The notes under the pieces: model-generated | Seen by the model: only the letters and a program-made list of their open reading frames with translations | The model's database searches: none | What the model was told of the DNA's origin: nothing | Source: a virus | Lineage: Duplodnaviria > Caudoviricetes | Length of the DNA: 64,000 nucleotides | Strand: one strand, 5' to 3' | IMG/VR virus record: IMGVR_UViG_3300021399_000009 | Span: 32,001-96,000 of that record | Shown here: positions 6,082 through 42,444 of the stretch, one piece after another | How the letters are laid out: the number at the start of each line of letters is the position of its first letter | Position numbering within the stretch: the first letter of the stretch is position 1 | Made by a program: the position numbers and the translations under genes

Positions 6082-6110
6082 TTGACAAAGTATAAATCAT
6101 ATAGTATAAT
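6082..6110 (+). promoter_or_regulatory. sigA-type promoter P1
   Basis: TTGACA (6082-6087), 17-bp spacer, TATAAT (6105-6110): perfect consensus in an intergenic gap. Confidence 0.9.
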
Positions 6111-6174: not shown

Positions 6175-6402
6175 ATGATAACATTGATAGTTGCATTGTC
6201 TATTATGGCTACCATTGCCAGTCTTGCTGGTAATATTTTGATTGCTTGTTCTAAAAGGTCAGGTTGGATTACTTGGATTGTAGGGAATATCCTTTGGATA
6301 GAAGTAAACTTCCTTGATACTATGAATGTTCCTATGGTTTGTATGTATGTAGTCTATATGGTTATTAACATCGTAGGATTTGTAAAATGGAGAAAGAGGT
6401 GA
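6175..6402 (+). CDS. PnuC-like small membrane protein
   Basis: Three hydrophobic segments, W..WIVGN.LW and G...W.K patterns, AGGAGG RBS. Confidence 0.6.
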   Translation: MITLIVALSIMATIASLAGNILIACSKRSGWITWIVGNILWIEVNFLDTMNVPMVCMYVVYMVINIVGFVKWRKR

Positions 6403-6407
6403 TTTGA

Positions 6408-7893: not shown

Positions 7894-8140
7894 AGAGTTT
7901 AAAGATAAACCAGTAAACGGCAATTACATACTTCTTGATATAGTAGGAGATATAAACAATCCTACGCTATTAACTCCAAAAGAAAACTGGACTGCCAAAG
8001 ATGTAACCAATGTTAATTGCACTGTTTATAACACAAAGACTGATAGAATGTCTACTAAGTCTGCTTATCTCAATTTAAAGACCAAAAGACTCTATCTCAA
8101 ATCTAAAGATGGTAGGCTGTATCTTGACGAGTTTAAGTGA
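7886..8140 (+). CDS. Hypothetical phage protein
   Basis: AGGAG RBS, overlapping operon. Confidence 0.7.
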   Translation: MLKEFKDKPVNGNYILLDIVGDINNPTLLTPKENWTAKDVTNVNCTVYNTKTDRMSTKSAYLNLKTKRLYLKSKDGRLYLDEFK

Positions 8141-8150
8141 GGTGAAAAAT

Positions 8151-8381
8151 ATGAAAATAGAACTATCTGACGAACTTTTTACCATGCTGTACTTTGGCAC
8201 ACGAAATGTTCGAGTAATAAGAAAAGCATTAAATGAAGCCGAAGATGCTATCAATGCATATCTTGAACCAGAGGACGGTACAACGAAATCCTTATATATT
8301 ATAAGCCCAGATGGGACTCGTTTTAAAGTTGAATATGGTGCGAAGATTGAAAACTTTGCAATCACTCCGTTTGTAGAGTGA
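8151..8381 (+). CDS. Hypothetical phage protein
   Basis: GAGGTG RBS before ATG 8151. Confidence 0.7.
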   Translation: MKIELSDELFTMLYFGTRNVRVIRKALNEAEDAINAYLEPEDGTTKSLYIISPDGTRFKVEYGAKIENFAITPFVE

Positions 8382-8390
8382 GGTGATGTT

Positions 8391-8684
8391 GTGGGCTTTG
8401 AATTAAATGGCTTTATTAAAGGCGTTCTCTACAATAAAGATGGAACAGTTGACTATGTGTTTGATGATGCCAAACTCGATGAAGTCATTGCTCCGTTTGA
8501 GAATGAAGCTGACGCAGAAAGAAATCAGGATAAGACGTTGTTTCTGCCAAGCTCAAAAGACCTTGAAGTCTCTTTTGAATCTGCCGATATTAGTGAAGAT
8601 ATTCTATATCTGTTAGGAGTTCTTCGCTGGTATGATTGGTGGAACAGGGATAGCGTTGAATATAATTTTGAGGTGAGTAAATGA
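8391..8684 (+). CDS. Hypothetical acidic phage protein
   Basis: GAGGTG RBS, GTG start. Confidence 0.65.
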   Translation: MGFELNGFIKGVLYNKDGTVDYVFDDAKLDEVIAPFENEADAERNQDKTLFLPSSKDLEVSFESADISEDILYLLGVLRWYDWWNRDSVEYNFEVSK

Positions 8685-8962
8685 CAACTGTTAAAGATTA
8701 CTTTAATCACGAAATCCATAAGGGAGATATACTTCTTTATAATCAAAAAGCATCAAAAGGTTATTATTCCTCGTTCACCGAGGGTGTTGTAGTGAACGTA
8801 ATAGGCAATGGCAAAATAGAAGTTTGTGGGATTGATGACTTGGACAAATACAAAAATGAAAATCGTGGTCAATGGGCTTCATATTACACAGACCGTAAGT
8901 ATGGTCGTAATACAGTAAATCTTACAGCTTTAGGGATAAGAGAAAGGGCTGAGTTAAATTAA
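8681..8962 (+). CDS. Hypothetical protein (D..EI..GD N-terminal motif)
   Basis: GAGGTG RBS; N-terminus resembles that of 9314-9721. Confidence 0.7.
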   Translation: MTTVKDYFNHEIHKGDILLYNQKASKGYYSSFTEGVVVNVIGNGKIEVCGIDDLDKYKNENRGQWASYYTDRKYGRNTVNLTALGIRERAELN

Positions 8963-8976
8963 AGGAGGAGAACGAA

Positions 8977-9309
8977 ATGATTTGTATTTTAAACCCTACG
9001 CTTGATTCTGTAATAATTAATCTTAAATCATTAAAACAAAAGGCAGCATATGATTGTTTTGGTTGGAAGCTCATTGAGATTCCAGTCCCACCTTATGAAC
9101 TTAAAATTGCTGTTTCAAATAATATTGAATTATCTTATATACTTGACACATACAAAGTAGAGCAAATTGGAATTGCCGCATATCCTGATGAAATTGAGTT
9201 CATTAAAGAGGATAAAGGACAGATTATAATTAAATTTGTTTCGGAAGGTAAGTTGCTTCAATTTATAGGTGAGATTAAAAAAGATAATGACAATTATCCT
9301 GCGAGGTGA
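8977..9309 (+). CDS. Hypothetical phage protein
   Basis: AGGAGG RBS. Confidence 0.7.
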   Translation: MICILNPTLDSVIINLKSLKQKAAYDCFGWKLIEIPVPPYELKIAVSNNIELSYILDTYKVEQIGIAAYPDEIEFIKEDKGQIIIKFVSEGKLLQFIGEIKKDNDNYPAR

Positions 9310-9313
9310 TGAT

Positions 9314-9721
9314 ATGACAGACTTCTTTGGTAAAGAAATCCAGATAGGAGATAGGTGCATAAGATACAATGGCAGTATTGGAGGTTTAGAAGAAGTCATT
9401 GTACTTGGAGAAGATAATAAGGGTTTAAAAATACTAAACTATCTTGATAAAGAAGTGTACACAACAGGAACAGAACACAAGTTGTTTAACCTATCCGCTT
9501 TTGAAAGACAAATGCACTCAGAGACTTTTATCAATTCCGTAAAGGCTCTTGATGTGAAACCTGATAGTATAGTAATCGCATCGCTAATTCCTAATCAATT
9601 ACCTATGGATAATGCCGAAAGTATGTACAAGCTAATGAAGAAAATGTTTCCAGATAACAAGGTTGGACTTGTTATGGGGCTTGATATTACAATTGAAAAT
9701 AGCAGGAGTGATAATAAATGA
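9314..9721 (+). CDS. Hypothetical protein (DFFGKEIQIGD N-terminus)
   Basis: GAGGTG RBS before ATG 9314. Confidence 0.7.
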   Translation: MTDFFGKEIQIGDRCIRYNGSIGGLEEVIVLGEDNKGLKILNYLDKEVYTTGTEHKLFNLSAFERQMHSETFINSVKALDVKPDSIVIASLIPNQLPMDNAESMYKLMKKMFPDNKVGLVMGLDITIENSRSDNK

Positions 9722-9966
9722 TTAACAAGAAATCTTGGAGTGAGTTTAGAACAAGCGGAATGTTGTGGTTTGTGAATATGATACTACATACATTTGGGTG
9801 GGCTTTAGTTGTAGACGTTGATGACGATGATAATGTAACAAGTTGTTATCCTGCAAGAGTAAAGTTTAGAGGATTCAATGTCAATTCTAATACTAAGGGA
9901 TATATTGCTGTCAGCGAATATCTTAAAAATAATATTAATGACATATTAGAAGAAGCTAAGAATTGA
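9718..9966 (+). CDS. Hypothetical phage protein
   Basis: AGGAG RBS; ATGA overlap with the previous gene. Confidence 0.7.
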   Translation: MINKKSWSEFRTSGMLWFVNMILHTFGWALVVDVDDDDNVTSCYPARVKFRGFNVNSNTKGYIAVSEYLKNNINDILEEAKN

Positions 9967-10346
9967 AATTCTATTTTATTCAAAAACGGAGGCAAGGAGA
10001 TGATATTACGGAACAGGAAGAAAGCATCAAAAGGGTTGTTGAATGGGCAGAAGAAGAAAGCAAAAGGGCTAAAGCGTTAGACGAGTTCAAAAATAGCCAA
10101 GTTCATTTCAATATTAAAAATCGTGTAGGTGAGAAAGACTACACAATGAGTGAAGAACAATGGAAACGATTTAGACAAGTTTGGGAATCATATGGAGTAA
10201 AATTCACAAACGATGATGGGACGTATAAATCTCTATACGAAGTGCTTTGTGAAATGAGTTCTGTTTGGCAAAGATTAAATGAGGAGAACCAAAGAGAATT
10301 GACAGATTGTATAAAGCTATTCATGAAGCCGAGGATAATTTTATAA
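9963..10346 (+). CDS. Small protein with a tape-measure-like segment
   Basis: GVKFTNDDGTYKSLYEVLCEMSSVWQRL aligns without gaps to the TMP segment GVDIMVDKDTFKSTYDIIKELGAVWGNL. Start is uncertain. Confidence 0.65.
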   Translation: MKFYFIQKRRQGDDITEQEESIKRVVEWAEEESKRAKALDEFKNSQVHFNIKNRVGEKDYTMSEEQWKRFRQVWESYGVKFTNDDGTYKSLYEVLCEMSSVWQRLNEENQRELTDCIKLFMKPRIIL

Positions 10347-10359
10347 ACAGGAGCGAAGT

Positions 10360-10665
10360 ATGAAATATATTGAAAATGTTGTAATAGGCAATATTAATGG
10401 GAAAGAGGCAAATTTATTTTCCCTTGAATCACACTTATTTGCAATTAATAACGAGGACTGGTATGAAAACGAATCAGATAAAACATATTATACAAACGAG
10501 AGATTTCTTCCAAAGATACTTGTTGACTTGGGTATATACCCTTCTATCTCAGAGATACGCAGGAACAGACCTGACCTATTTATAACATTGGACAAGCAAG
10601 ACTTTATAAGCAAATTAAAAGTAGCAAAGAAAAGATTTTTATGGATTGCAGTAGGAGGTATATGA
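10360..10665 (+). CDS. Protein with a segment resembling the TyrRS C-terminal S4-like domain
   Basis: ILVDLGIYPSISEIRR...LKVAKKRF pattern; AGGAG RBS. Confidence 0.5.
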   Translation: MKYIENVVIGNINGKEANLFSLESHLFAINNEDWYENESDKTYYTNERFLPKILVDLGIYPSISEIRRNRPDLFITLDKQDFISKLKVAKKRFLWIAVGGI

Positions 10666-10666
10666 T

Positions 10667-11026
10667 TTGATAATCAAAGATTTTAAAGTTGGAGATGAAG
10701 TAGTCTATCTTGATTTTAATGGATATTCGACACCTAAAAGGACAACATTACGCAAAGGATATATTATTAATGTTGGCAGAAAGATAATTACAATAGGTAA
10801 ACAACCAGATTCTTCTTATGGCTTTAAGTTTACTATTGATGATAATAATATGTGCCTTCGTTCAACTAATATTGGTATTTACGATTTAGCTTTCAAAGAT
10901 TTAGAACAGTATGGACGTTATGTTGAATACAAGGAACTAAAATATTGGGCTTATAGATTTGACTTTGATAGACTACCTTACGATAAGCTAATCAAGATTA
11001 AGGAGATTGTTGAAAATGATTCGTGA
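10667..11026 (+). CDS. Hypothetical protein (FKVGDEV N-terminus)
   Basis: AGGAGG RBS, TTG start. Confidence 0.7.
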   Translation: MIIKDFKVGDEVVYLDFNGYSTPKRTTLRKGYIINVGRKIITIGKQPDSSYGFKFTIDDNNMCLRSTNIGIYDLAFKDLEQYGRYVEYKELKYWAYRFDFDRLPYDKLIKIKEIVENDS

Positions 11027-11258
11027 TATATTTGCGATGATAGGGCTTGGCACATCTATAACGATATTTACAGTGCTTTTTATAGAACTGTTAGAATATT
11101 TTAATCGAAAGAGATGTAAACACAAGTGGGAGTTCTATGATTGTGGTTACACCCCAGAATCTTTTTATATTGAACTTAGGTGCAAGAAATGCAGAGAGAT
11201 AAAACATATCGAATGTGATATAGATACAACAAAATGGGACATTGAATATACAGAGTAA
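11016..11258 (+). CDS. Membrane-anchored protein with C-x-H...CxxC zinc motif
   Basis: N-terminal TM helix; CKHKWE...RCKKC. Confidence 0.65.
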   Translation: MIRDIFAMIGLGTSITIFTVLFIELLEYFNRKRCKHKWEFYDCGYTPESFYIELRCKKCREIKHIECDIDTTKWDIEYTE

Positions 11259-11272
11259 AGGAGAGATTTTAA

Positions 11273-11830
11273 ATGAAAAAATTTATAGCATTATTTATGG
11301 CAGGAGTTGCATTTGCAACACTTACATCTTGTAAAGAGGATGAATCGAAGCGTAGAGCTGACACAGAAAAAACATTGGCGATAGCAAGCAAATTACAAAG
11401 TAATCAACCTACGCCTACTGATATTGATTATAGCCTTGAAAGATACAATCTCATTAAGAGAGCATATTGGGTAAATGGCAACAGAGAAAAAGCAAATGCA
11501 CTTCCTTGTGAAATAGAAAAGCCCTTGGGCTATATAGTTCTTTTTGATAAGGGAGTCGTATTTGGTAAGTTTGTTGTTGATGGTAAGGTATCATCACTTA
11601 ATAGTTATCTTACACCTGATACTGAATATTACGATGTGGATTATGTAGGTGACAGTAGTTACTACAATGAATGGCTTGCTGATGTTGATGGTTCATACGG
11701 CGAGAATGACAATGGTATATTTTTCTTTACTACAGATGGTAAGTACATTGAATGGACAGGTGAATATCTATACTCAGATATTCCCTTTGAGATTGACGAA
11801 CCTGTATTAAAATTCAAGGAGGATAAGTAA
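11273..11830 (+). CDS. Putative lipoprotein
   Basis: Signal peptide MKKFIALF... with lipobox LTSC. Confidence 0.75.
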   Translation: MKKFIALFMAGVAFATLTSCKEDESKRRADTEKTLAIASKLQSNQPTPTDIDYSLERYNLIKRAYWVNGNREKANALPCEIEKPLGYIVLFDKGVVFGKFVVDGKVSSLNSYLTPDTEYYDVDYVGDSSYYNEWLADVDGSYGENDNGIFFFTTDGKYIEWTGEYLYSDIPFEIDEPVLKFKEDK

Positions 11831-12210
11831 TGAATAAAACAATAGCAATAGTTGCAAGCTGTGTACTGTTGATACCAATAATTTATTTTAGTGCTACGCC
11901 ATCGGGTCGTAGAACTTGGAATAACTGGTGGCACAATGTACAAACTGCCGATGATGATACAAGATATGAGACACGAAAAAAGGTTGAAGATACTTGCCGT
12001 TCAATGATAGCAAGTTATAATTCAGATAAACTTACATACGAGCAATATAAGGATTCTGATAATTCTGAAAAACAGTCTTGGGCTGAACAGGCTAAAATGA
12101 GAGCTAACAAAACAGCTTCTACTTATAACAACTACATATTAAAGAATAACTATGTATGGAAGAATGATGTCCCATTTGATATATATAGTACGCTTAATTA
12201 TTTGGAGTAA
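11830..12210 (+). CDS. Membrane-anchored protein coupled to the lipoprotein
   Basis: TAATG overlap, GGAGG RBS, N-terminal TM segment. Confidence 0.75.
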   Translation: MNKTIAIVASCVLLIPIIYFSATPSGRRTWNNWWHNVQTADDDTRYETRKKVEDTCRSMIASYNSDKLTYEQYKDSDNSEKQSWAEQAKMRANKTASTYNNYILKNNYVWKNDVPFDIYSTLNYLE

Positions 12211-12221
12211 AAATAATATAA

Positions 12222-12380
12222 ATGAGAATTGTAATAATAAGTCCGTATAGATTTAAGGCACATACCAAATTCAAGCAATTATTAAATGAGTTTACCAAAA
12301 AGTATAGTATTATAGATACCGAAGCCACTGGCGAGACTACATACATAATCAGTTATACAACATCAACTAATTGCGATTGA
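12222..12380 (+). CDS. Small hypothetical protein (52 aa, below ORF-track cutoff)
   Basis: MRIVIISPYRF...STNCD fills the gap between neighbouring genes. Confidence 0.45.
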   Translation: MRIVIISPYRFKAHTKFKQLLNEFTKKYSIIDTEATGETTYIISYTTSTNCD

Positions 12381-12389
12381 GGTGATAAA

Positions 12390-13496
12390 ATGCAAATATA
12401 TGCAGACAACGCAGCGTTTAAACCGTTGTTGCCGGAGGTCAAGAAGTTTATACATAACTTCATCGAAACTGATTTCTGCAATCCGTCAGCAATTTACAGC
12501 AATGGACGGTCTACACGGAGGCTGATAGAACAAGCAAGAGAACAAGTTGCAAAGGCGATAGGTGCGGACACAGACGAGATATATTTTACGGGTTCTGCAA
12601 CCGAATCAATCAATTGGTTTGCTCGTAATGCTGACCGCATATACACCACAACCATTGAGCACAAAGCGGTGTTGAGAAACGCCAACAACTTCATACCTGT
12701 AGATAATACAGGCAGAGTTGATTTAGATATATTCCGAGAGCAATGTCCGAGATACGGCAACGTGATAGTAGGTTGGGTTAATAATGAGATAGGTGTTATT
12801 CAGCCTGTAAAAGAAATAGTTGACATATGTCACAAGAAGCATAGCAGTATCTTGATTGACGCAACACAAGCCATAGGGCATATCCCAATAGATGTACATG
12901 AACTTGGTGTTGACTTTCTCGTAGGCTCTTTTGGCAAGCTTGGTGGTCTTACAGGTAGTGGTTTCCTCTATATGAGAAGGGGTATGCATATTGAGCCGAT
13001 GATAAAAGGTGGCGGTCAGGAACACGGCATGAGAGCTTCAACCGAAAACATAATTGGCATTTTGGCAGGAGCGAAAGCTATTGAAATTGCAACAAAGCAC
13101 ATCGTCCCAAACACCATACGTCGAGATTATATTATTGAAAGTTTGCTCAATATCCCTAAAAGTTATTTGAATGGTTCTTGGTCTAAGAGAGTTGACAACA
13201 ATATAAATGTGGCTTTTGAGGGCATAGAAGCCGAGAGTTTAGTTTTACAACTGGATTTAAAAGGCATTGCCGTGAGTGCCGGTTCGGCTTGCAACTCCAC
13301 AAACATTGAACCATCACACGTATTAAAGGCAATAGGATTAAGTGATGAGATAGCAAAGGCTTCAATCCGCATAACAATAGACGAAAATATTACAGACGAG
13401 CAGATTGAATACCTTGTAAATACCATTAAAGACTGTGTGGCAAAGATGAGACAGTCATCGTCATTATGGAAGAAGATTGAGAACGAGGATAATTGA
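12390..13496 (+). CDS. iscS: Cysteine desulfurase, IscS/NifS family
   Basis: DNAA, EHKAV, NNEIG, DATQAIG, PLP lysine in SFGK, GGGQE, catalytic loop SAGSAC. Confidence 0.9.
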   Translation: MQIYADNAAFKPLLPEVKKFIHNFIETDFCNPSAIYSNGRSTRRLIEQAREQVAKAIGADTDEIYFTGSATESINWFARNADRIYTTTIEHKAVLRNANNFIPVDNTGRVDLDIFREQCPRYGNVIVGWVNNEIGVIQPVKEIVDICHKKHSSILIDATQAIGHIPIDVHELGVDFLVGSFGKLGGLTGSGFLYMRRGMHIEPMIKGGGQEHGMRASTENIIGILAGAKAIEIATKHIVPNTIRRDYIIESLLNIPKSYLNGSWSKRVDNNINVAFEGIEAESLVLQLDLKGIAVSAGSACNSTNIEPSHVLKAIGLSDEIAKASIRITIDENITDEQIEYLVNTIKDCVAKMRQSSSLWKKIENEDN

Positions 13497-13550
13497 AGAT
13501 TATTTTCAGGATGCAGAAAATAAAAATCTCTCGAATTTTTTAAAAAATAC

Positions 13551-13579
13551 TTGACAAAGTACAAATCGTGTGGTATAAT
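13551..13579 (+). promoter_or_regulatory. sigA-type promoter P2 with extended -10
   Basis: TTGACA (13551-13556), 17 bp, TG-G-TATAAT (-10 at 13574-13579), AT-rich upstream element. Confidence 0.9.
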
Positions 13580-13676
13580 ATGAATATAAGGTTTTTAAAA
13601 AATGTATACAAAGTACAAATCGTATACAGCCTTATATTCATATTTTTATAATGTACAAATCATATAGGAAGGTAAG

Positions 13677-14390
13677 GTGATAGCGATGAAATTTACTTCA
13701 TCATTCATCCGAGGCTTTATAGCCTCAACAGCATTTATTATTTTACTTGGTGTTTGCTTAGTAGGAATTGGCAAACGTGCAAGCACAGACACGACAAACA
13801 CGCAGAGTATAATTCCTACAATGGCAGAATCAACTTGTTTGACTACAGTTTTCACAACCACCACAACTACCACAACTGAGTCCACAACAACTACTACAAC
13901 AAGCACATCCACAAGTACTTCAACATCAACAAGTACTTCAACAAGCACAACAACTACTACCACCACAACAGCAATTGAACTGACAACAGAAGTTCAGATT
14001 CAGACAACAGAGTGTATACAAACAGAGCGTGTAGAAACCTATGATGTTACTGATACTTGTTCATTTTTATCAGAGCAAGATTGGATTTTAATTAGCAATG
14101 TTATATCACACGAAGCAGGTAGTTTACATATATCAACCTACGAACGTTCCTGTATTGTAGCAGCTATTATGAATAGGGTATATGATAGTAGATTCCCAAA
14201 TACAGTTGACGAAGTTGTACATCAGGCAGGACAGATGTTCGATGTACCATATTATAGAGTTGACTACTCAGGCATAGGATATGAACCTATTGACGAAGCA
14301 ATAAGAATGTATCTCGCTAATCCAGATGGCTATGGTAATATCAATAGTTGGAGTGGTGACGGTTATCATAATTATTTTAGTCGTAAGTAA
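13677..14390 (+). CDS. Membrane-anchored SleB/CwlJ-like cell wall hydrolase with Thr/Ser-rich stalk
   Basis: N-terminal TM, poly-T/TS linker, HEAG...IMNRV..SRFPNTV.EVV.Q.GQ (Hydrolase_2). Confidence 0.85.
   Translation: MIAMKFTSSFIRGFIASTAFIILLGVCLVGIGKRASTDTTNTQSIIPTMAESTCLTTVFTTTTTTTTESTTTTTTSTSTSTSTSTSTSTSTTTTTTTTAIELTTEVQIQTTECIQTERVETYDVTDTCSFLSEQDWILISNVISHEAGSLHISTYERSCIVAAIMNRVYDSRFPNTVDEVVHQAGQMFDVPYYRVDYSGIGYEPIDEAIRMYLANPDGYGNINSWSGDGYHNYFSRK
13850..13970 (+). repeat. Low-complexity Thr/Ser codon repeat
   Basis: Runs of ACN/TCN/AGY codons encoding TTTTTTTTESTTTTTTSTSTSTS. Confidence 0.85.
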
Positions 14391-14397
14391 AGGAGAC

Positions 14398-14625
14398 ATG
14401 ATGCGAGACAAGTATAGGTTATTTAAGTTCTACGAAGAACTTAGAGAAATACATATGAAGTATTTCCCCGATTGGCGTTTTGGACAGATGATAAGCAACG
14501 TATTAGTTGATTGGCGTTTTAAAACAGGGAGAGATATTTTCTTTCCAGAGGAAGATGAAATGATACAAATTTTTAAAGATTATATAAAGGAGAACGGATA
14601 TGATAAAAAAGACAATCCTTCTTGA
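14398..14625 (+). CDS. Hypothetical phage protein (PDWRFGQ motif)
   Basis: AGGAG RBS. Confidence 0.7.
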   Translation: MMRDKYRLFKFYEELREIHMKYFPDWRFGQMISNVLVDWRFKTGRDIFFPEEDEMIQIFKDYIKENGYDKKDNPS

Positions 14626-14830
14626 TGATGTAAAGAAGGTATCAAACTTTGTAAATGAAACTTTTAAGTTCAAGGGAGACATCACTGTTAAACATGGTAA
14701 GTATATAGTCAATGGTCGTTCACTTCTTGGGCTTATGTCATTAGATTTATCTAAGCCTCTTACTTGTGAAATTGAAGAAAGAGAAGAACAAATTTGGAAT
14801 GTAAACTGCAAGAGATTCGAGGTACAGTAA
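14600..14830 (+). CDS. HPr-family protein lacking His15
   Basis: YIVNGRSLLGLMSLDL (Ser46 region); no GLHARP motif. Confidence 0.8.
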   Translation: MIKKTILLDDVKKVSNFVNETFKFKGDITVKHGKYIVNGRSLLGLMSLDLSKPLTCEIEEREEQIWNVNCKRFEVQ

Positions 14831-15534
14831 TGAACGTTGAGCTTATTTCTTGGACGAAAGACCCACTTATGACTTGTGCAAAAGCAGCAAGTGTTTGCTA
14901 TGATTCTGAGCCAAGTTTAAAAATAATTAAGGGTTGTATTAAATCAAGGCATCTTTCTGTACTTGAACCCGCAAGTTTTATATTTAAGATAAGCGGTATA
15001 TCTCGTAGCTGTTCACATCAGCTTGTTCGTCACAGAATAGCTTCATACTCTCAGCAGAGTCAGAGGTATGTAAAATTAGATAATCCAACTTGGGTATTAC
15101 CTACTAACTATATGCCCTATGATGACGAAACAGAACGACTTGAAAAGGTTATGCTTGCAAGCTGTGAAAAATCCCTTGAAGCATATGAAGAAATTTTAGA
15201 GCTTGATAACGAAAATAATAATGATACTGCTCGTTGTGTTCTTCCAAATGCAACACCTACTACAATTGTTGTTACAATGAATATCAGAACACTTATGAAT
15301 TTCTTTAATGAAAGATTGTGTAGTAGAGCTTCGAGAGAAATCAGACAAGTTGCTATTAAAATGAAGAAGGCTATTTTAAACTGTCCTGATATAACAGCAG
15401 AAGAAGCTGATATTCTTGATAACATATTTGTTCCTAAATGCGAAAGATATGACATTCCATTCTGCCCTGAGATACAGTGTTGCGGTAGACATAAGAGACT
15501 TAAAGAAATAGTAAAGGAGGAGTACATCAAATGA
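14830..15534 (+). CDS. thyX: Flavin-dependent thymidylate synthase
   Basis: HLSVLE, SHQLVRHRIASYSQQSQRYV, ARCVLPNA. Confidence 0.95.
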   Translation: MNVELISWTKDPLMTCAKAASVCYDSEPSLKIIKGCIKSRHLSVLEPASFIFKISGISRSCSHQLVRHRIASYSQQSQRYVKLDNPTWVLPTNYMPYDDETERLEKVMLASCEKSLEAYEEILELDNENNNDTARCVLPNATPTTIVVTMNIRTLMNFFNERLCSRASREIRQVAIKMKKAILNCPDITAEEADILDNIFVPKCERYDIPFCPEIQCCGRHKRLKEIVKEEYIK

Positions 15535-16079
15535 AGCCATTAATAGCATTAATAGGAACAAGTGGTTCTGGGAAAACAACGCTTGCAAACAAGCTTCAAA
15601 GAAAATATGGATATACTTCTGTAAAATCCTATACCACGAGAGCAATAAGGAATGACCCAGAAGATGCTTTAAGTCATACATTTATTTCACCTGACCGAGT
15701 AGCAGATTACAAAAAAGATATTGTTGCTGATAATTGGTACAACGGTAATTATTATTTTTGCACAAAGCAGCAACTTGATACGTCAGACATATACGTTACG
15801 GACAGAGAGGGTTTAATAAAAATATACAATAATTATATTGGTAAAGACATTATTGCAATCTATCTTGATGTTCCTCCTGAGATTGTTGCCAAACGTATGG
15901 AGCAACGTGGAGATAGTAACGAATCTATTTTATCAAGGTTGCAGTATGATTCAAAAGCATTTGAAGGAGCAAAGGAACTGTGTGATTTCGTTTGTTTAAA
16001 TTGCACTCAGGAACAGCAAGGAGATATTTGTGAATTTATAAATATGCTTTTTAAATACAGAGGTGGTACTAATGATTAA
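15531..16079 (+). CDS. gmk: Guanylate kinase-like dNMP kinase
   Basis: GTSGSGKT P-loop, SYTTR, YNGNYY, RGD. Confidence 0.85.
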   Translation: MKPLIALIGTSGSGKTTLANKLQRKYGYTSVKSYTTRAIRNDPEDALSHTFISPDRVADYKKDIVADNWYNGNYYFCTKQQLDTSDIYVTDREGLIKIYNNYIGKDIIAIYLDVPPEIVAKRMEQRGDSNESILSRLQYDSKAFEGAKELCDFVCLNCTQEQQGDICEFINMLFKYRGGTND

Positions 16080-16278
16080 AGTTCACGTAAGTACAATTTT
16101 CAATAGTGCAACAATAGAACTCTTAAATTTCTTGGACGAAAGAGATATTTCATACGAGGTCGAAAGGGTTAGTACCGAGTGGGTAGGGAGTCACAAAGTG
16201 AAGTCCTTGCCTGTAGTCGAGGTAGATGGAGAAATACTTTCAATGAAGAAGATAATGAAACGATTGAAAAAGAGGTGA
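16072..16278 (+). CDS. Glutaredoxin-like protein lacking CxxC
   Basis: LPVVEVDG motif shared with the next gene; no Cys. Confidence 0.6.
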   Translation: MIKVHVSTIFNSATIELLNFLDERDISYEVERVSTEWVGSHKVKSLPVVEVDGEILSMKKIMKRLKKR

Positions 16279-16282
16279 CAAT

Positions 16283-16498
16283 ATGACCATAACTTTATTT
16301 ACAATAGATTGTCCTAATTGTAAGAGGCTTGAAGAAAAGCTTATTTCATTTGGCTTTCAGTTTTCGATTTGTAAAGATAAGAATATAATGGCAGAACGAG
16401 GAATGACCCATTTGCCTGTACTTGAAGTAGATGGAACAAGCATGAGTTTTAAAGAAGCAATAAAATGGATTAACGACCAAAGAAAGGGGACGATGTAA
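16283..16498 (+). CDS. NrdH/glutaredoxin-like redoxin
   Basis: CPNC active site, LPVLEVDG. Confidence 0.85.
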   Translation: MTITLFTIDCPNCKRLEEKLISFGFQFSICKDKNIMAERGMTHLPVLEVDGTSMSFKEAIKWINDQRKGTM

Positions 16499-18352: not shown

Positions 18353-18827
18353 ATATCTTGGTCGCTCCATAGTTTTTCAAGAAGTACCAAATGAAATAAG
18401 TCTTGCTATAAACGTTAGTGGTTGCCCTTACAAATGTAAGGGTTGCCACAGCTCTTATTTGTGGGATTACAAGGGTAGATACGTCAGTGATGATATTAAA
18501 GCATTAATAGATATGCACGATGGCATTACTTGTGTTTGTTTTATGGGTGGCGACCAAAACCCACAAGAGCTTAATAAGCTAATAGATTATATCCATTCAA
18601 GGGGACTAAAAGTTTGTTTATATACTGGAACAGACAACATTCCAAAAGATATATTTCATTTGGATTATCTTAAAATAGGTCATTACTCAGAAGAGCTTGG
18701 AGGGCTTGACAAACCAACAACAAATCAAAAATTTTATGTTGTACATGATGACAAAGAATACTTTGATATGACTATTATGTTTAGAAAGGAAATGCAAAAT
18801 GTCATTAAAGATAATAAAGAATCCTGA
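18339..18827 (+). CDS. nrdG: Class III RNR activase (radical SAM)
   Basis: FQEVPNE, CPYKCKGCHS, FMGG, LYTG, TTNQ. Confidence 0.93.
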   Translation: MQRLKYLGRSIVFQEVPNEISLAINVSGCPYKCKGCHSSYLWDYKGRYVSDDIKALIDMHDGITCVCFMGGDQNPQELNKLIDYIHSRGLKVCLYTGTDNIPKDIFHLDYLKIGHYSEELGGLDKPTTNQKFYVVHDDKEYFDMTIMFRKEMQNVIKDNKES

Positions 18828-18996: not shown

Positions 18997-18997
18997 T

Positions 18998-19723: not shown

Positions 19724-19726
19724 GGT

Positions 19727-36270: not shown

Positions 36271-39200
36271 TCATTTTACATAACTCTCATTTAGTTTCAA
36301 ATCCATATATGTATGAATTTCTTTTATAAACTGACTATGGAACTGTTGCGGATTATCTGCCTTTATAGTCATATTGTTGATATTTACCGCTGTGGAATTA
36401 GATGTTGGGGCAGAAGGTTTAAACGCTCTATTAAGTCCTTGCATAACTCTATTTTCGATTTGTGTAGCGAACTTACCTGTCCTAACCAAATCGTAAAGTT
36501 CCTTAGACTGACTTGCATTAAAGACTGTCTCTGAGTGATTCGGTGTACCATGAACCATTGTCATACCAGTAAAGTCAACAGAGCCACCGTCTTTATATCC
36601 TTTTAATCGCCTTATAATGTCAGCAGCTTTTCCTCTATAAGATTCTCCATTAATGACAGCAAGAGCAGAATCCGCAAAAGTAGAACCTATAGCATCTAAT
36701 GCCAGAGCAATAGTCTCAATTGATGATGTTAAATAATCTATCAAGCCATCCATAGCAGGAGCACCATCGTTTGAAAGTTCTGCTATTTGATTTGTTAAAG
36801 CCTCTATTTTATTTGTCGTATCATCAATTAATTTGCTTTTATCACTTATAGCGTTCATATAAGCTATATAGTGATTCTTAAAGGCGTTTAAGTTATTGTC
36901 TCTCGCCTTTAAGTCTGATGCCTCATTGATAGTTACTTGGTCTAATATTTTCATATAATCTTCGTTTGCGTTTTTAGCGGCTGTTGCTGCGTCTTGCACA
37001 GATTTCTTATATTTATTCCAAGCGTCTATCGTCTTTTGCTTTGCTTTAATCTCAGCATCAACAGATTCAATAGATTTTTTAAGTGTTGCAATTTCGCCAT
37101 TAACAAGCTTAGAGAGTTGATTGTTGTAGGAACGATATTCATTCTTAAACTTGCTAAGAAGTTTGATGTCTTTATTTCTAATCTTTTCACGCCACTCAGA
37201 GCCAAGCAATTCGTCAGCAAGTCTCTCTTTTTCCTCTCTGTCAAGCAAATCTTTTATTCCAGACCACTCATCGGCATAAGCTTCAAATCCCTTTATTTGG
37301 TCATCATAAGCCTTAATTCGCTTGTCTCTTTCCTTTTCAAGCTCTTTAATAGCTTTATCATCATCCGCTTGTTTTAGTGCTTCTTGTGCATTGGCAATTG
37401 CATCTCTGTCAACAGCATATCCCCAGCCCGTAGCAGCACCATAAACTCTAACTTTATTCTTCTTTGCGTTTTCAAGGGCAGCAAGTTTTTCTGCATAATC
37501 TAATGCGTCTTTTCTTTCAGAGTTTTCATCTTTAAGTTTATCAATAAGGTCATTATAATATTTTTCAACCTCGTCTTGATTTTTCTTAATTTCGTCAACT
37601 TGGTCTTTAACCGTAGCACTAATAACATCTGCCACATTATCATAGTTTTTAATAATATCTTCTATTTGCTGTTTTTGCTGTTCAAGAGCGTCAAGCTGTT
37701 CTTCTAATATTTTTTTATTTTCTTCTAATGCGTCTTTTTCATCTTGAAACTTATCAATAATTTGGTCAATCTTATATTCCTGTGCTTTTAAAAGATTGTC
37801 GGCAGACTTGTTTAAATTATCAAGTTCTGTTTTTAATTTTTCCTGAGATTTTTTTAAAGCATCTATCTGAGCTTGTAGCATATTCTGAGTATTAGCAAGA
37901 TTTCCCAAGTGTGCATTATATTCACGAATGAGTGTTGTGTCTCTCTGAATTTCATCACCGTAAGCTTTTGAACTTGCTTTTAACTGAGTGATAGATTTAC
38001 TAAGGTCGCTCTGCGTAGCAACAAGTTCTTGTGAGGGTCTTGAATTGCCTTGTGCTGTTCTTGCTATTTGAGAATTAATTCTTGCATATTCACGTTCGTA
38101 TATTTGAATCTTCTTATCTACATTCTGTTTTGCAATGCGTGATTCTTCCAAATCTTGTTGAATAAGAATTTTATTTTTTTCAATTATATCATCTTTAAGA
38201 GAAATTAAATTTTCAAGTTCAATATGATAATTTCCAGAGCCATCTATACTTGGTACACCCAATAAGTTATTTGTATCTAAATTAAGTATATCCCATGCGG
38301 AACTGTGATTTAATCCTTCTCCTTTAACAGCAGACACCATAGCTGATTCAATCTTACTAATATTATCTAAAGCATCTTTGTGAACAGACTTTAACTGTTC
38401 CTTAAATCTTTCATATACTACTTCTTCATTGCCAACTACTCCCTCCATTGATAATCCCATATTCTTCAATGCAGAATCAGCATATTGAGATAATACTGGG
38501 TATTTATCAATAAGAGATTTTATTACATCTTCCTGCTCGTATAAATTTTGTAAAGCTCCATACTGTTGTGCTGGTGTTTTTGTTGAATCGTTAACCACAC
38601 GATTAAGTTCTGCCATACTCTTGATTGTCGATTCATAAGTAGCTAAATCTTCACTTGATAATAAGTTTTCAAGAGACTCAGAATTAGAAAGCATTTGTTG
38701 TTTAGTCTGAATCGTGTCATAATAGTCAGAAACTTGTTTTAAAACACCTAAAACGTGGTCTTGTCTATCTCCCTCTAAATCAAAATAATCTGCTACAGAA
38801 CCTTTTTGCTCTATTAATTGTTTGTAAGCATCAACGTAAGCGTCTATAGCTCGTTTTGTTTGTTCTGCATCCAGCCCCTCTTTAAGAGAAATATTATACC
38901 TTAAATCTTTTACAGCTTGATTGCCAATCTGCCTTTCGATTATATCTTCATTATATGTAAACAAATCCGATACATTTTGTTCTTCTAAGGCATCTTTTAA
39001 AGATTTATAAAATATATTAGCCTCGGTAACAGCCGCTTTTTTAACGGCATCACTTTTCTCCGTAAGAGTGTCTATTTTAAATGTAGACAAAGAAAGACTC
39101 TGCCCGAAGAAATCCTCGGCATCTTTAATTGTTTGTCTATTATCTGTAAGCCAATTTTCATTTCTCTGCTTTTCTTGTTCAAGCAGTAAACCGATATTAT

Positions 39201-42200
39201 CTTCAAGTTTGCCATTAACTAAATCAATTGCATCAGCTTCAAGTCCATACTTTTCGATAATCTGTTCCTGTATATTAATAAGACTATCTTTTACATCGGA
39301 AAGATTTTCCGTGGATGATACAAGTTGTATGTACTGACCAGTTAGGTCTTGTATGTTTTTACTTTCTTGTTCATAAAGCTTTGCACTTTCTATGGTTGCC
39401 TTACGTCTTTCTTCCATTTCTTGACGTAACTGTTCTGCTTGTTCTGCTGCTTCTTTCTCCTTGTTAACCCATTTTGAAACGGCATTTACCGCCCAACTAA
39501 CGGCAAGAGACAAGCCAAATGACACAAGGGTATTTAAAGCAGCAACGCCAGCTTGTGCAGCAATAGACTTAATTCTCACCCCATCAAGTGCAACACCTAT
39601 TTTGGCAATACCACTTGCATCTGTTTTTTTCAAATCAGATTTTACATCAGACCATTTTTTACCAAATATTGTTAATTGTCTTGTTGCTTCTTTGGCATTT
39701 TCTTCAACACCGAATATACCTACACCTTTTGTTATACTAAGAGTTGCACCCAATCCTGCCATTAAAGTTGGGAATGTACCAAGTTTATCAATTGTCTTAG
39801 TAATAATTTCCAAGAAATTCTGAGCCACTCCAAACATTTTTTTTGTAGACTCATTGTTAATAACAGTGTTTGCAAATTCTTGATATGCAGCTTTCAGAGT
39901 ATCAAGTGAGTACTGAATTGACTTTGAGTACTCCTCCTGTTCTTGCATCGCAGAACCTTCGGATTTGATAGATGTCTGTAATACATCGTCAAGTTTTTCG
40001 TAATTTCTCAAAGCACTTGCTACAACGTTAGCCTGTCTCTTTCCTGCAATTGCTTCAAGAATCTGTGCTTGCTCAATATCTTTAAGGTTGCCCCATACCG
40101 CACCAAGTTCTTTGATTATATCATAGGTAGATTTGAATGTATCTTTATCTACCATGATGTCTACACCAGTCATGCTTTTTATCATTGCTTGGAGCTTTGC
40201 AGTTGATTCTACCATTCCTTCGGTATCTTCGCCAGCATCTTCGAGTTCTGCTTTCGCAGCTCTAATTCTCATTGAAACGGTACGCCATGCTTGTGCAACT
40301 GCAACGGGGTCTTGAACAATTTCATTAGCAACGGTAGTTAACGCAATTGTTTGGTCAAGTGTATTATTAGCACTTGCCATTGCTGATGAAACTCGTTTTA
40401 ATGCCTCTCCAAGTCCACCAGAATCTACAGCAAACGTATTACTTACCTTGTTGATACGGTCTATAATACGCTCTGAATCTTTAGCTTCTAAATTAAACGC
40501 TTTCATAATACTGATAATAGATTCAGCAGCACTATCTATAGTTATCCCGTCACCAACATTTTTGTATAGCGTTGCAACCCTACCAAGTTCTTCGGCATCT
40601 GGTAAGCTAAATCCAGCTCTACTAAATACACTTGTAGCATTAATGACATCACTAACACTTGCACCTAATGTTTTTGCGGTTGAAGCAGCGGACTTCTGAA
40701 ATGCTTCAAATTCCTCATCACTTGCCTCTGTAACTTTCCGCAATTCTACCATTGCATTGTCAAGATTAACTACTTCATTCATCAATGACCTTATAGTACG
40801 AATAGCTCCTTGCAAAGAAATCCATTGCATAATGACTTGACTAAGCTGAGTTCTCATATCTCTAAAGAAAGCACTCATGGTTAAATTAGCAGCAGTAGCT
40901 TCTTTCTTTAGCACAACAAACTCTTGATTAATCTCTTTAAGTCCGTTTTCATCCAAATTCTCCGATTTGAGTCTTGTAATAAGTTCCTGCCATTTTTGAG
41001 CAAATGTTGTGACACCATCAGACATTAGCTTATTAGAGTTAATTACTTTTTTATTCTGTTGTGCATAGGAGTTCATGGATGCACTCAGCCCCTTAATGCC
41101 GTTAGCAAGTTTTGTTTGAGCTGCATTGTCATTCAAGGATGCAATTAACCGTTTTGTAGAATCGTTAACAGTATTTAATTTTGGCTTCAAGTTATCTAAT
41201 TCGTTTTGAATAGCAACTAATGCTTCTGGCGTAGTTGCTGTTTGCAACTCGGAAGATAGCTTTTGATACTCGCTAATTAAAGACTGAATCTCAGCTATTT
41301 GGTTCTGTACATCAATATTGTTAGCATTTTTGCGGAACGTTATATTTGTGGTTTTAGAGCTAAGACCACTTATATTTGTACTAATTCTATCGTTTAAACT
41401 TGTTTTTGTAGAATTAAAATTTCTCGTTATTCTATCAAGTTCCTCATAGTATTTCTTCATATCTTTAAGAACTTGATTTTCAGCAGTCATTGCTTTTATT
41501 CTTTCATCAAATTGTCCTTGCCAATATTTATGTTGTGCAGATTCTCGTATCTCTTTTTCTTGCTTTGCTAAATCAACTATTCGTTCTTCATCACGAATTT
41601 TTGATTTCATATATTGATTTTCGGCTTTTATAGCAGATATATCAGAATTTAAAACAGATAACTTATCAAGAAATTTATTCATACCATTGGTATCATTTAC
41701 AGATGCCAATTCAGTTTTTAGTTCGTTTATTCTGTTAGCAAATGTCGTAGAATATAATTCAGCAGTTTTTAACTGACTAATAATTTTTTCTAAATCTGAA
41801 AAACGTTTCTCTTTTTGAACGTCAACACCTTCGTGCCTAAAGGTTGTAGCGTTGGTAGCCTCACGAATCGTTTTGCCAAGATACTCATACACTCTCGCTT
41901 CTTTGTTTAAACTATAAGTAAGAGTCTCTATTGCACCATTTTCTTTTTCTACTTGAACCACAAATGATTGTAACGACTGAGTAGCATCTTCATTGGCTCT
42001 ACGAACTCTTGAAGCAACATCACCAGTTCCATCAAGAAATGTATTAACGGTATTTTTAGCAACTTCCAATGTTTTATCGGTATTGCCAGTATAAGGAATC
42101 TTGGGGTAATAGCCTTTTGACATTCGAGCTTTATTAAGAGCTATAGCATTTTCAGTGGCGTTTTTAACTTCTTTATTATATTCTTTTATTTGTTTAACCT

Positions 42201-42444
42201 GAGATTGTGAAATAACATCGGCACTTGAAGAATTTGATATGTTTCCAACATTGATTTTAATATCTTTAAGCTGATTCTTAATCTCATTTATGCTATCTTT
42301 GTCAATAGTACATTTTATTTGCAAAGCCTTTGAATTATTAATTCTGTCTCTAATTATAGGTATATCTGTATCTACGATTTGCCTAACTGATTTATCTTCA
42401 TCGAGTTTTGCAATCAGTTCTATTATATTATCATTGACAGCCAT
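36271..42444 (-). CDS. Tail tape measure protein (TP901-type core)
   Basis: 2057 aa, helical; LDNAMVELRKVT, DRINKVSN, AGKRQAN; C-terminal YKDGG...HGT. Confidence 0.92.
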   Translation of the reverse strand: MAVNDNIIELIAKLDEDKSVRQIVDTDIPIIRDRINNSKALQIKCTIDKDSINEIKNQLKDIKINVGNISNSSSADVISQSQVKQIKEYNKEVKNATENAIALNKARMSKGYYPKIPYTGNTDKTLEVAKNTVNTFLDGTGDVASRVRRANEDATQSLQSFVVQVEKENGAIETLTYSLNKEARVYEYLGKTIREATNATTFRHEGVDVQKEKRFSDLEKIISQLKTAELYSTTFANRINELKTELASVNDTNGMNKFLDKLSVLNSDISAIKAENQYMKSKIRDEERIVDLAKQEKEIRESAQHKYWQGQFDERIKAMTAENQVLKDMKKYYEELDRITRNFNSTKTSLNDRISTNISGLSSKTTNITFRKNANNIDVQNQIAEIQSLISEYQKLSSELQTATTPEALVAIQNELDNLKPKLNTVNDSTKRLIASLNDNAAQTKLANGIKGLSASMNSYAQQNKKVINSNKLMSDGVTTFAQKWQELITRLKSENLDENGLKEINQEFVVLKKEATAANLTMSAFFRDMRTQLSQVIMQWISLQGAIRTIRSLMNEVVNLDNAMVELRKVTEASDEEFEAFQKSAASTAKTLGASVSDVINATSVFSRAGFSLPDAEELGRVATLYKNVGDGITIDSAAESIISIMKAFNLEAKDSERIIDRINKVSNTFAVDSGGLGEALKRVSSAMASANNTLDQTIALTTVANEIVQDPVAVAQAWRTVSMRIRAAKAELEDAGEDTEGMVESTAKLQAMIKSMTGVDIMVDKDTFKSTYDIIKELGAVWGNLKDIEQAQILEAIAGKRQANVVASALRNYEKLDDVLQTSIKSEGSAMQEQEEYSKSIQYSLDTLKAAYQEFANTVINNESTKKMFGVAQNFLEIITKTIDKLGTFPTLMAGLGATLSITKGVGIFGVEENAKEATRQLTIFGKKWSDVKSDLKKTDASGIAKIGVALDGVRIKSIAAQAGVAALNTLVSFGLSLAVSWAVNAVSKWVNKEKEAAEQAEQLRQEMEERRKATIESAKLYEQESKNIQDLTGQYIQLVSSTENLSDVKDSLINIQEQIIEKYGLEADAIDLVNGKLEDNIGLLLEQEKQRNENWLTDNRQTIKDAEDFFGQSLSLSTFKIDTLTEKSDAVKKAAVTEANIFYKSLKDALEEQNVSDLFTYNEDIIERQIGNQAVKDLRYNISLKEGLDAEQTKRAIDAYVDAYKQLIEQKGSVADYFDLEGDRQDHVLGVLKQVSDYYDTIQTKQQMLSNSESLENLLSSEDLATYESTIKSMAELNRVVNDSTKTPAQQYGALQNLYEQEDVIKSLIDKYPVLSQYADSALKNMGLSMEGVVGNEEVVYERFKEQLKSVHKDALDNISKIESAMVSAVKGEGLNHSSAWDILNLDTNNLLGVPSIDGSGNYHIELENLISLKDDIIEKNKILIQQDLEESRIAKQNVDKKIQIYEREYARINSQIARTAQGNSRPSQELVATQSDLSKSITQLKASSKAYGDEIQRDTTLIREYNAHLGNLANTQNMLQAQIDALKKSQEKLKTELDNLNKSADNLLKAQEYKIDQIIDKFQDEKDALEENKKILEEQLDALEQQKQQIEDIIKNYDNVADVISATVKDQVDEIKKNQDEVEKYYNDLIDKLKDENSERKDALDYAEKLAALENAKKNKVRVYGAATGWGYAVDRDAIANAQEALKQADDDKAIKELEKERDKRIKAYDDQIKGFEAYADEWSGIKDLLDREEKERLADELLGSEWREKIRNKDIKLLSKFKNEYRSYNNQLSKLVNGEIATLKKSIESVDAEIKAKQKTIDAWNKYKKSVQDAATAAKNANEDYMKILDQVTINEASDLKARDNNLNAFKNHYIAYMNAISDKSKLIDDTTNKIEALTNQIAELSNDGAPAMDGLIDYLTSSIETIALALDAIGSTFADSALAVINGESYRGKAADIIRRLKGYKDGGSVDFTGMTMVHGTPNHSETVFNASQSKELYDLVRTGKFATQIENRVMQGLNRAFKPSAPTSNSTAVNINNMTIKADNPQQFHSQFIKEIHTYMDLKLNESYVK

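What the first reader, a model, noticed from the sequence alone, without database searches (positions are those of the whole stretch)
9963..10346. Stand-alone early protein resembling a segment of the phage's own tape measure
Seen: YGVKFTNDDGTYKSLYEVLCEMSSVWQRLNEENQRELTDCI (10191-10313) aligns without gaps to TMP TGVDIMVDKDTFKSTYDIIKELGAVWGNLKDIEQAQILEAI (about 40048-40170, minus strand). The match has 13/41 identities plus many conservative swaps, in the conserved TP901-type core. Known: some defence and superinfection-exclusion proteins target TMPs or tail assembly. Inference: an early-expressed decoy against a TMP-sensing defence, or a dominant-negative inhibitor of competing phage tails.
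Basis: partly seen in the sequence, partly recalled or inferred. Interest (0 to 1): 0.7.

Follow-up and report, generated by a model that had tools for sequence, protein, structure and literature searches.

The report
Stand-alone mini copy of tape-measure core
A 108-kb temperate gut phage carries, among its early and DNA-metabolism genes, a small gene kept by selection whose ~55-residue core is an old free-standing copy of one folded unit of the conserved tail tape-measure core; it may act as a molecular mimic, but its function is untested.

Summary

**Homology to the tape measure (TMP)**
- ORF 9963-10346 (127 aa) matches the phage's TMP (36271-42444, minus strand) at residues 737-799. BLASTP gives 33.9 bits; 300 shuffles gave 17.3±2.1.
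- A TMP-core profile searched against all 1296 six-frame ORFs of the genome finds only this ORF (E 2.8e-7).
- Secondary-structure elements coincide, and the best fold matches among viral models are minor-tail/TMP proteins.

**A real gene family**
- About 30 relatives of 53-163 aa were found, and pairwise dN/dS is 0.22-0.26.
- The minis form one clade apart from 95 TMP segments.
- The functional unit is the ~55-aa core. A syntenic relative carries a 60-aa core-only form.

**Not a copy of this phage's own TMP**
- The own TMP ranks 68th of 120.
- Eight positions that are hydrophobic in TMPs are polar in the minis. The β-hairpin motif D-x-x-T-[YF]-K-S-x-Y is kept.

**Context and function**
- The family always lies in the replication/nucleotide-metabolism region. 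In three distant phages it sits between a RecJ-like exonuclease and Pol III alpha.
- The function (decoy, interference or something else) is untested.
- This scan has noted similar mini-genes on other phage DNA.

The parts
9963..10346 (+). Mini-TMP gene, 127 aa (P0001). The start is uncertain: TTG 9963 overlaps the upstream stop. Relatives start at an ATG that is ACG (10008) here.
   Evidence: An identical protein is encoded in an independent metagenome record, L014.
9963..10145 (+). Variable N-terminal extension (residues 1-61), predicted as a long helix. It is absent from the core-only forms.
   Evidence: AF2 model: H2-44 and H46-57, lower pLDDT. The 60-aa form sits in the syntenic slot of L012. 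53-81-aa forms were also found.
10146..10316 (+). Conserved core module (residues 62-118): helix, beta-hairpin, helix, helix. It is homologous to TMP residues ~745-800. The in-frame ATG at 10146 aligns with the start of the short forms.
   Evidence: pLDDT ~95; invariant columns; hhalign 95.7%; TMP-core HMM E 2.8e-7.
10191..10313 (+).
36271..42444 (-). Tape measure protein gene, 2057 aa (P0002).
   Evidence: PF10145 E 7.8e-20; TIGR01760 E 6.8e-34.
40045..40212 (-). TMP segment (residues 745-800) homologous to the mini core. It is the last helix-hairpin-helix-helix unit of the core, just before the invariant G-K-R-Q-x-N motif.
6082..6110 (+). Perfect TTGACA-17-TATAAT promoter heading the plus-strand small-gene block that contains the mini gene (inferred transcription start). 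No terminator-like site lies between 6234 and 12600.
   Evidence: The spacer element recurs at 13653-13668.
9718..9966 (+). Upstream neighbour, 82 aa, phrog_16397 (unknown function). It overlaps the mini gene's TTG by 4 bases and is also directly upstream in L012.

Best explanation
Shown: ORF 9963-10346 is a real protein-coding gene of a small phage family. Its ~55-residue core (helix, beta-hairpin, helix, helix) is an ancient stand-alone derivative of the last structural unit of the TP901-type tape-measure core (PF10145/TIGR01760). It evolves on its own, under purifying selection, and is not a recent copy of this phage's TMP. It has no signal peptide or membrane segment. It lies in an operon-like block of small genes behind a consensus promoter, in the replication/nucleotide-metabolism arm of a 108.6-kb temperate SPbeta-like gut phage. 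Inferred mechanism: the module has been resurfaced into a soluble, autonomous domain. It still displays the polar hairpin and helix residues that are nearly invariant in TMPs (D84, T87, K89, S90, Y92, E97, W102). It most likely acts in the cytoplasm as a molecular mimic of that TMP epitope. In that role it would occupy a factor that normally binds the TMP core, such as a host or prophage defence protein that senses or blocks TMPs (Tab-like, SNIPE-like), and so protect the phage's own TMP. That the gene and the homology are real: ~0.9. That the mimic/decoy mechanism is right: ~0.35.
For: Homology:
- BLASTP 33.9 bits against shuffles of 17.3±2.1, 0 of 300 reaching it.
- TMP-core HMM is the only non-TMP hit in the genome, E 2.8e-7.
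- hhalign 95.7%.
- The family HMM hits the homologous place in all 120 TMP relatives, up to 27.8 bits.
- 8 of 20 members hit PF10145 sub-threshold, and no other Pfam family is hit by more than 2.
- P0025 hits TIGR01760 positions 195-231.

Fold:
- AF2 core pLDDT ~95.
- Elements H64-76, hairpin 82-88, H91-104 and H107-121 coincide with TMP-core model elements at TMP 748-759, 764-770, 773-784 and 789-799.
- The top 9 BFVD matches are all minor tail proteins, probability 0.95-1.00, rmsd 2.2-5.5 Å.
- Atlas: TM 0.73 to a 100% PF10145 cluster, and 28 of 30 named neighbours carry PF10145.

Real gene:
- 18 close and 9 more distant relatives.
- dN/dS 0.22-0.26.
- Syntenic in L001-L003 and L012.

Single old origin:
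- The minis are one clade, SH-aLRT 100.

Resurfacing with a retained hairpin:
- TMP positions 745, 751, 758, 764, 765, 790, 793 and 800 are 78-100% hydrophobic in TMPs and 0-15% in the minis.
- D766/T769/K771/S772/Y774/E779/W784 are kept as D84/T87/K89/S90/Y92/E97/W102.

Context and precedent:
- Promoter and early-type context.
- TMP-directed defences and a phage-encoded antidote exist (PMC10884400; 10.1101/2025.11.03.685801).
Against: - There is no direct evidence of any binding partner, expression time or phenotype.
- The retained polar residues (T-x-K-S, D-D-G) could be purely structural (turn and helix-capping residues) rather than an epitope.
- The mini is no closer to its own TMP than to others, so there is no sign of co-evolution with the protein it would shield.
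- A truncated mimic could as easily trigger a sensor as block it.
- In three distant phages the gene is wedged between a RecJ-like exonuclease and Pol III alpha with overlapping stops and starts. That points towards DNA metabolism rather than defence.
- No relative was found in cultured phages or in 185,579 reference genomes, so nothing is known experimentally.
Confidence: 0.4

Rival explanations
1. Replication or DNA-metabolism accessory. The module was recruited as a small subunit or adaptor of the phage replisome or DNA-processing machinery (for example with the RecJ-like DHH exonuclease or Pol III alpha). Its TMP ancestry would then be irrelevant to its present job.
For: In L004, L005 and L006-L008 the 59-80-aa forms sit directly between a ~565-aa DHH/RecJ-like gene and the next gene, with overlapping stops and starts. 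The next gene is Pol III alpha in L005 and L006. In the window, L001, L012 and L017 the gene lies in the same arm as Pol III alpha, a RecD2-like helicase, Dam, ThyX, a dNMP kinase and NrdD. Some variants carry a strongly basic C-terminal tail (P0014, P0019, P0021).
Against: The position is not fixed. In this phage the RecJ-like gene abuts Pol III alpha with no gene between, and the mini lies ~7 kb downstream of the Pol III alpha gene, in a block of unrelated small genes. The core is mildly acidic, not DNA-binding in character (read from the sequence). Small-gene blocks of this kind usually hold accessory genes (general knowledge).
Confidence: 0.17
2. TMP-binding modulator. The mini binds TMP cores, either of rival phages (dominant-negative, Tab-like tail-assembly block) or of its own phage (holding the TMP or timing tail assembly), through the contacts its ancestor made inside the TMP.
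For: Homology to a TMP-core unit. It is more similar to the consensus and to other TMP lineages than to its own, as expected if rivals are the target. Tab shows that blocking assembly through the TMP is an effective strategy (PMC10884400).
Against: Eight positions that are hydrophobic in TMPs, most likely the face packing against the rest of the core, are polar in the minis. This argues against docking in place of the native unit. The gene sits in a promoter-driven lytic-type operon, not in a prophage-expressed moron position. An inhibitor of TP901-type cores would also endanger the phage's own TMP.
Confidence: 0.15
3. Decaying TMP fragment or chance similarity with no function.
For: P0001 alone gives no TMP hit in Pfam or NCBIfam. 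A single-sequence search of 1.8 billion proteins found no TMP.
Against: dN/dS is 0.22-0.26. About 30 intact relatives exist in several contexts. Shuffle, genome-wide HMM and profile-profile statistics all support the match. The minis form a monophyletic clade. The core is confidently folded.
Confidence: 0.03

Closest known systems
Conserved core of TP901-family tail tape-measure proteins (Pfam PF10145 PhageMin_Tail; NCBIfam TIGR01760)
   Same: The mini core is homologous to the last helix-hairpin-helix-helix unit of this core. It shares the same secondary-structure elements and the near-invariant residues G-V, D, T-[YF]-K-S-x-Y, E and V-W-x-x-L.
   Different: It covers only ~56 of the ~200-340 core residues. 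It ends before the invariant G-K-R-Q-x-N motif. It has no coiled coil, no hydrophobic segments and no tail-module position. Its buried face has been resurfaced, and it falls below the curated family thresholds.
Anti-Tab (gp30) and Tab of Pseudomonas phage JBD26 (PMC10884400)
   Same: Small phage proteins whose biology centres on the TMP. Tab blocks tail assembly through the TMP of invading phages, and anti-Tab is a phage-made antidote. This gives a precedent for both readings of the mini.
   Different: No sequence relationship was tested. Tab and anti-Tab lie between the terminase genes, anti-Tab is expressed late, and anti-Tab binds Tab rather than mimicking a TMP as far as is known. Here the gene is in the early/replication arm.
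SNIPE membrane nuclease (10.1101/2025.11.03.685801) and TMP-directed injection blocks (Ltp of TP-J34, HK97 gp15; these two from my own knowledge)
   Same: They show that host or prophage proteins recognise TMPs. Such proteins are the kind of factor a TMP mimic could titrate.
   Different: These act at the membrane during injection. The mini has no signal peptide, lipobox or membrane segment and would be cytoplasmic.
Stand-alone TMP mini-genes noted by this scan in other phages (e1-5842750, e1-5758184, e1-372266, e1-3315951, e1-5865293)
   Same: Small early or replication-region genes that copy a piece of a TMP. Two of the notes name the same PF10145 core.
   Different: These are unchecked AI notes on other DNA. 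No shared sequence words were found with this ORF. Some of them copy other TMP parts (the C-terminus, or another core piece).

Membership tests
PF10145 / TIGR01760 TMP core | Score above the curated family threshold | tested here: not met
   P0001 gives no hit at E<=10. 8 of 20 relatives hit PF10145 sub-threshold, best E 0.011. P0025 scores 14.6 bits against TIGR01760, cut-off 28.8.
PF10145 / TIGR01760 TMP core | Homology to the core by profile methods | tested here: met
   hhalign 95.7%, E 1.1e-8. TMP-core HMM E 2.8e-7 over the whole genome. The family HMM hits all 120 TMPs at the same place.
PF10145 / TIGR01760 TMP core | Same fold over the matched unit | tested here: met
   Secondary-structure elements coincide. 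The top 9 BFVD matches are minor tail proteins. Atlas TM 0.73 to a PF10145 cluster. No solved structure of the core exists for comparison.
PF10145 / TIGR01760 TMP core | Complete core domain, including the invariant G-K-R-Q-x-N motif that follows the segment | tested here: not met
   Only TMP 745-800 is represented. The minis end or diverge before G801/K802/R803/Q804/N806.
Tape measure protein (functional class) | Long protein in the tail module, downstream of the chaperone genes, with coiled coil and hydrophobic segments | tested here: not met
   127 aa, on the plus-strand early arm. The true TMP is at 36271-42444, with candidate chaperone genes at 42461-43559.
Tab / anti-Tab (JBD26) | [quoted passage not shown] | tested here: not met
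   The gene lies among small early genes, ~26 kb from the TMP gene and on the opposite strand from the minus-strand block that holds it; position rule from PMC10884400.
Tab / anti-Tab (JBD26) | Sequence or fold similarity to Tab or anti-Tab; binding to Tab | not tested
Ltp/Sie-type injection blockers | Signal peptide or lipobox, or a membrane anchor | tested here: not met
   The sequence read directly shows no N-terminal hydrophobic stretch, lipobox or membrane segment. The model is all soluble helices.

The most novel reading that the evidence does not exclude
Phages of several lineages carry 'mini-TMP' genes: soluble, resurfaced copies of single TMP units, made early in infection. They would serve as decoys that blunt immunity proteins recognising the conserved tape-measure core, or as weapons against co-infecting phages. 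This would be a new class of counter-defence built on mimicry of a virion protein, and it would mark which TMP epitope is under immune surveillance.
Probability: 0.25. Interest if true: 0.8.

Novelty: new variant of a known kind. Interest (0 to 1): 0.55.

Why it matters
The TP901-type tape-measure core is one of the commonest phage domains, yet it has no solved structure and no assigned molecular role. A selectively maintained, free-standing, confidently folding copy of one of its units offers two things.

- It is a tractable handle on that domain: it is small and predicted to be a soluble, confidently folded helical domain, so it should be suitable for structure determination and pull-downs.
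- It hints that this unit is a recognition surface worth mimicking, at a time when TMP-directed defences (Tab, SNIPE) are just being described.

If the mimic idea is wrong, the alternative is still of interest: a virion-protein module recruited into the replication arm would be an unusual case of domain exaptation.

Tried and rejected
**Searches that found nothing useful**
- Complex prediction of TMP residues 560-900 with mini residues 58-127 gave no verdict: score 0.01 against a mark of 0.32, controls not run. This is no evidence either way.
- A family-profile search among proteins of 283-2000 aa found nothing at E<=1. The E-value is scaled to 5.8 billion sequences, so this is uninformative.
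- tblastn of P0001 and P0026 against 50,697 phage records gave only E>=0.1 hits. Several of those fall in TMP genes (FP_Taranis, phiSM101, and a 1509-aa protein of Enterocloster phages).
- megablast of 8000-20000 found no match.
- The genome-contig scan found no relative. Viral contigs gave one locus and metagenome contigs four.
- PDB by sequence gave only an L29 chance-level hit, E 0.1.
- Foldseek against the PDB found nothing.
- pdb_via_wide matched only the N-terminal long helix to coiled coils, Z<=5.7.
- For the TMP-core model, the PDB gave only designed helical repeats.

**Weak hits judged to be chance**
- Holin_LLH at E 0.049, Bromodomain, and YlbF/YmcA at 17.7 bits against a cut-off of 177.
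- A possible second TMP-like mini-gene at genome 10627-11013: 6.9 bits, E 0.2, lysine/glutamate-rich helix. Rejected.

- The look-up of sequencing runs listed no RNA holder.
- No model coordinates were available, so burial of the resurfaced positions could not be measured.

Full report
**1. What is there**

The window is bases 32001-96000 of a complete 108,606-bp virus record with direct terminal repeats.

- A plus-strand arm (1 to ~20800) carries Pol III alpha (with an intein), a RecD2-like helicase, blocks of small genes, a class-V aminotransferase, ThyX, a nucleotide kinase and NrdD/NrdG.
- A serine recombinase follows at 20938-22668, and then the minus-strand block that holds the TMP and its neighbouring genes.
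- The upstream part of the genome has a YorK-like DHH/RecJ exonuclease directly abutting Pol III alpha. Relatives carry YorF and YorH families. This is an SPbeta-like temperate phage.
- Near-identical DNA occurs in animal gut metagenomes.
- ORF 9963-10346 (127 aa, P0001) lies in a tightly packed block of small plus-strand genes. A perfect TTGACA-17-TATAAT promoter sits at 6082-6110, and no terminator-like site lies between 6234 and 12600.

**2.

- BLASTP extends it to ORF residues 55-117 against TMP 737-799: 33.9 bits, pairwise E 3e-6.
- Shuffled ORFs score 17.3±2.1 bits (max 25.4), with 0 of 300 reaching 33.9.
- In the reciprocal direction, an HMM of 119 TMP cores searched against all 1296 six-frame ORFs of the genome finds the TMP and this ORF only (E 2.8e-7).
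- The TMP segment lies inside PF10145 (587-801) and TIGR01760 (547-899).

**3. It is a gene family, not debris**

- The word-indexed search found 18 relatives of 72-223 aa. The exhaustive search of 1.8 billion representatives added nine of 59-108 aa.
- The shared part is a ~55-residue core (P0001 residues 62-118). Nearly invariant residues are W74, E75, G78, V79, F81, D84, D85, G86, T87, Y88, K89, E97, M98, V101 and L105.
- The N-terminal 60 residues of P0001 form a variable long helix. A close relative (L012) has a 60-aa core-only gene in the same slot, directly after the same phrog_16397 neighbour.
- Other variants carry a basic C-terminal tail or a methyltransferase fragment.
- Pairwise dN/dS is 0.22-0.26.
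- An identical protein is encoded in an independent metagenome record.

**4. Relation to TMPs**

- The family HMM hits the homologous place in all 120 related TMPs, with scores from -0.4 to 27.8 bits (median 18). The phage's own TMP scores 21.8.
- With P0001's core alone, the own TMP ranks 68th of 120. TMPs P0063, P0055 and P0054 share 53% identity over 30 residues. The mini resembles the TMP consensus rather than its own TMP.
- On a tree of 20 mini cores and 95 distinct TMP segments, the minis are one side of a branch with SH-aLRT 100. The tree has only 56 columns, so it should be read cautiously.
- 8 of 20 members give sub-threshold PF10145 hits, and no other family is hit by more than 2 members.

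**5. Fold**

- The AF2 model of the mini has pLDDT ~95 over residues 61-120: H64-76, a hairpin at 82-88, H91-104 and H107-121.
- The AF2 model of TMP 560-900 (pLDDT 81.5, pTM 0.78) is a stack of helix pairs. Its last unit has elements at TMP 748-759, 764-770, 773-784 and 789-799. Shifted by the alignment offset of 682, these fall on the mini's elements.
- Foldseek against viral models puts nine 'minor tail protein' entries on top: probability 0.95-1.00, rmsd 2.2-5.5 Å over 48-65 columns, E only 0.02-0.16 because the domain is small.
- The ESM Atlas gives TM 0.73 to a cluster that is 100% PF10145. It also shows several ~100-member clusters of 62-91-aa viral proteins nearby.
- No solved structure resembles either model.

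**6. What changed in the stand-alone form**

- The hydrophobic core positions are shared: V79/V761, F81/I763, Y88/F770, Y92/Y774, V94/I776, M98/I780, W102/W784 and L105/L787.
- Eight positions that are 78-100% hydrophobic in TMPs (745, 751, 758, 764, 765, 790, 793, 800) are 0-15% hydrophobic in the minis.
- Helix 1 has gained an aromatic stripe (W67, F70, W74, Y77).
- The invariant TMP D762 is K in the minis.
- The polar hairpin residues D766, T769, K771 and S772 are kept as D84, T87, K89 and S90.
- My inference is that the face packing against the rest of the TMP core was made hydrophilic, producing an autonomous soluble domain that still shows the hairpin. I could not verify burial because no coordinates were available.

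**7. Context elsewhere**

- The close relative P0008 lies in the same kind of small-gene block, upstream of Dam, the aminotransferase and a cell-wall hydrolase.
- L017 places a 63-aa form between Dam and ThyX, a kinase and NrdD.
- Three more distant forms (P0025, P0026, P0028) sit right after a DHH/RecJ-like gene with overlapping stop and start. In L005 and L006 they sit right before Pol III alpha.
- This phage has no gene at that junction and no second copy.
- The family therefore stays in the replication/nucleotide-metabolism arm but is not tied to one neighbour.

**8. Mechanism**

Nothing here measures function.

- I commit, at about 0.35, to a cytoplasmic mimic of a TMP-core epitope that titrates a TMP-binding factor. 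Tab/anti-Tab and SNIPE show that such factors exist.
- The rivals are a replication accessory (0.17) and a TMP-binding modulator or dominant negative (0.15). The second is weakened by the resurfacing.
- Debris or chance is rejected.
- The co-folding job gave no verdict and is not used as evidence.

**9. Start codon**

- Relatives start at an ATG aligned with codon 16. In this phage that codon is ACG (10008). It follows a strong GGAGG...GGAG at 9988-9999, and an in-frame ATT lies at 10005.
- P0003 and P0004 share the loss and use an upstream ATG where this phage has TTG 9963.
- The in-frame ATG at 10146 matches the start of the core-only forms.
- Which start is used is unknown.

**10. Novelty**

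- I found no paper on stand-alone TMP-core proteins.
- This scan has noted similar mini-genes on other phage DNA. Those are unchecked notes and share no sequence words with this ORF.
- I class the finding as a new variant of a known kind.

Noticed in passing
window 80-2836 (+): The Pol III alpha gene is interrupted by an intein: Intein_splicing and Hint domains plus a LAGLIDADG endonuclease domain, at residues ~104-537 of the windowed part.
   Followed up: no
window 6082-6110 and 13653-13668 (+): A perfect sigma-70 consensus promoter whose 16-base spacer element recurs, with 2 mismatches, just upstream of the gene at 13677. An earlier scan note describes this as a multi-copy operator.
   Followed up: partly
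window 9988-10010 (+): The ATG that relatives use as the start of the mini gene is ACG here, although the strong Shine-Dalgarno sequence in front of it is kept. The start has apparently moved to TTG 9963, or to a non-canonical ATT at 10005.
   Followed up: partly
L016 417-745; proteins P0014, P0019, P0021: A ~55-aa peptide with a very basic end (K/R-rich) is a separate ORF upstream of the mini core in L016. In P0014, P0019 and P0021 it is fused to the C-terminus of the mini core.
   Followed up: no
protein P0015 (223 aa, 1.8-kb contig): An in-frame fusion of an N6-adenine methyltransferase fragment (PF07669) to the mini core. It could be a deletion variant or an assembly chimera.
   Followed up: no
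L011 14553-16247 / 16247 onward (genome 28553-30247): In this phage the DHH/RecJ-like exonuclease gene abuts Pol III alpha directly. Three distant relatives have the mini gene exactly at this junction.
   Followed up: yes
window 12390-13496 (+): A class-V aminotransferase (cysteine desulfurase-like, E 4e-53) is encoded in the phage early arm. It is conserved in relatives L001 and L002.
   Followed up: no
window 6176-6405 (+): The first ORF after the promoter is a small, hydrophobic, membrane-like protein. Relative L006 has a PnuC/NMN-transporter-like gene in a comparable place.
   Followed up: no
genome 10627-11013 (+), outside the window: A 129-aa K/E-rich helical ORF gives a marginal match (6.9 bits, E 0.2) to TMP-core positions 258-316. 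Judged not significant.
   Followed up: partly
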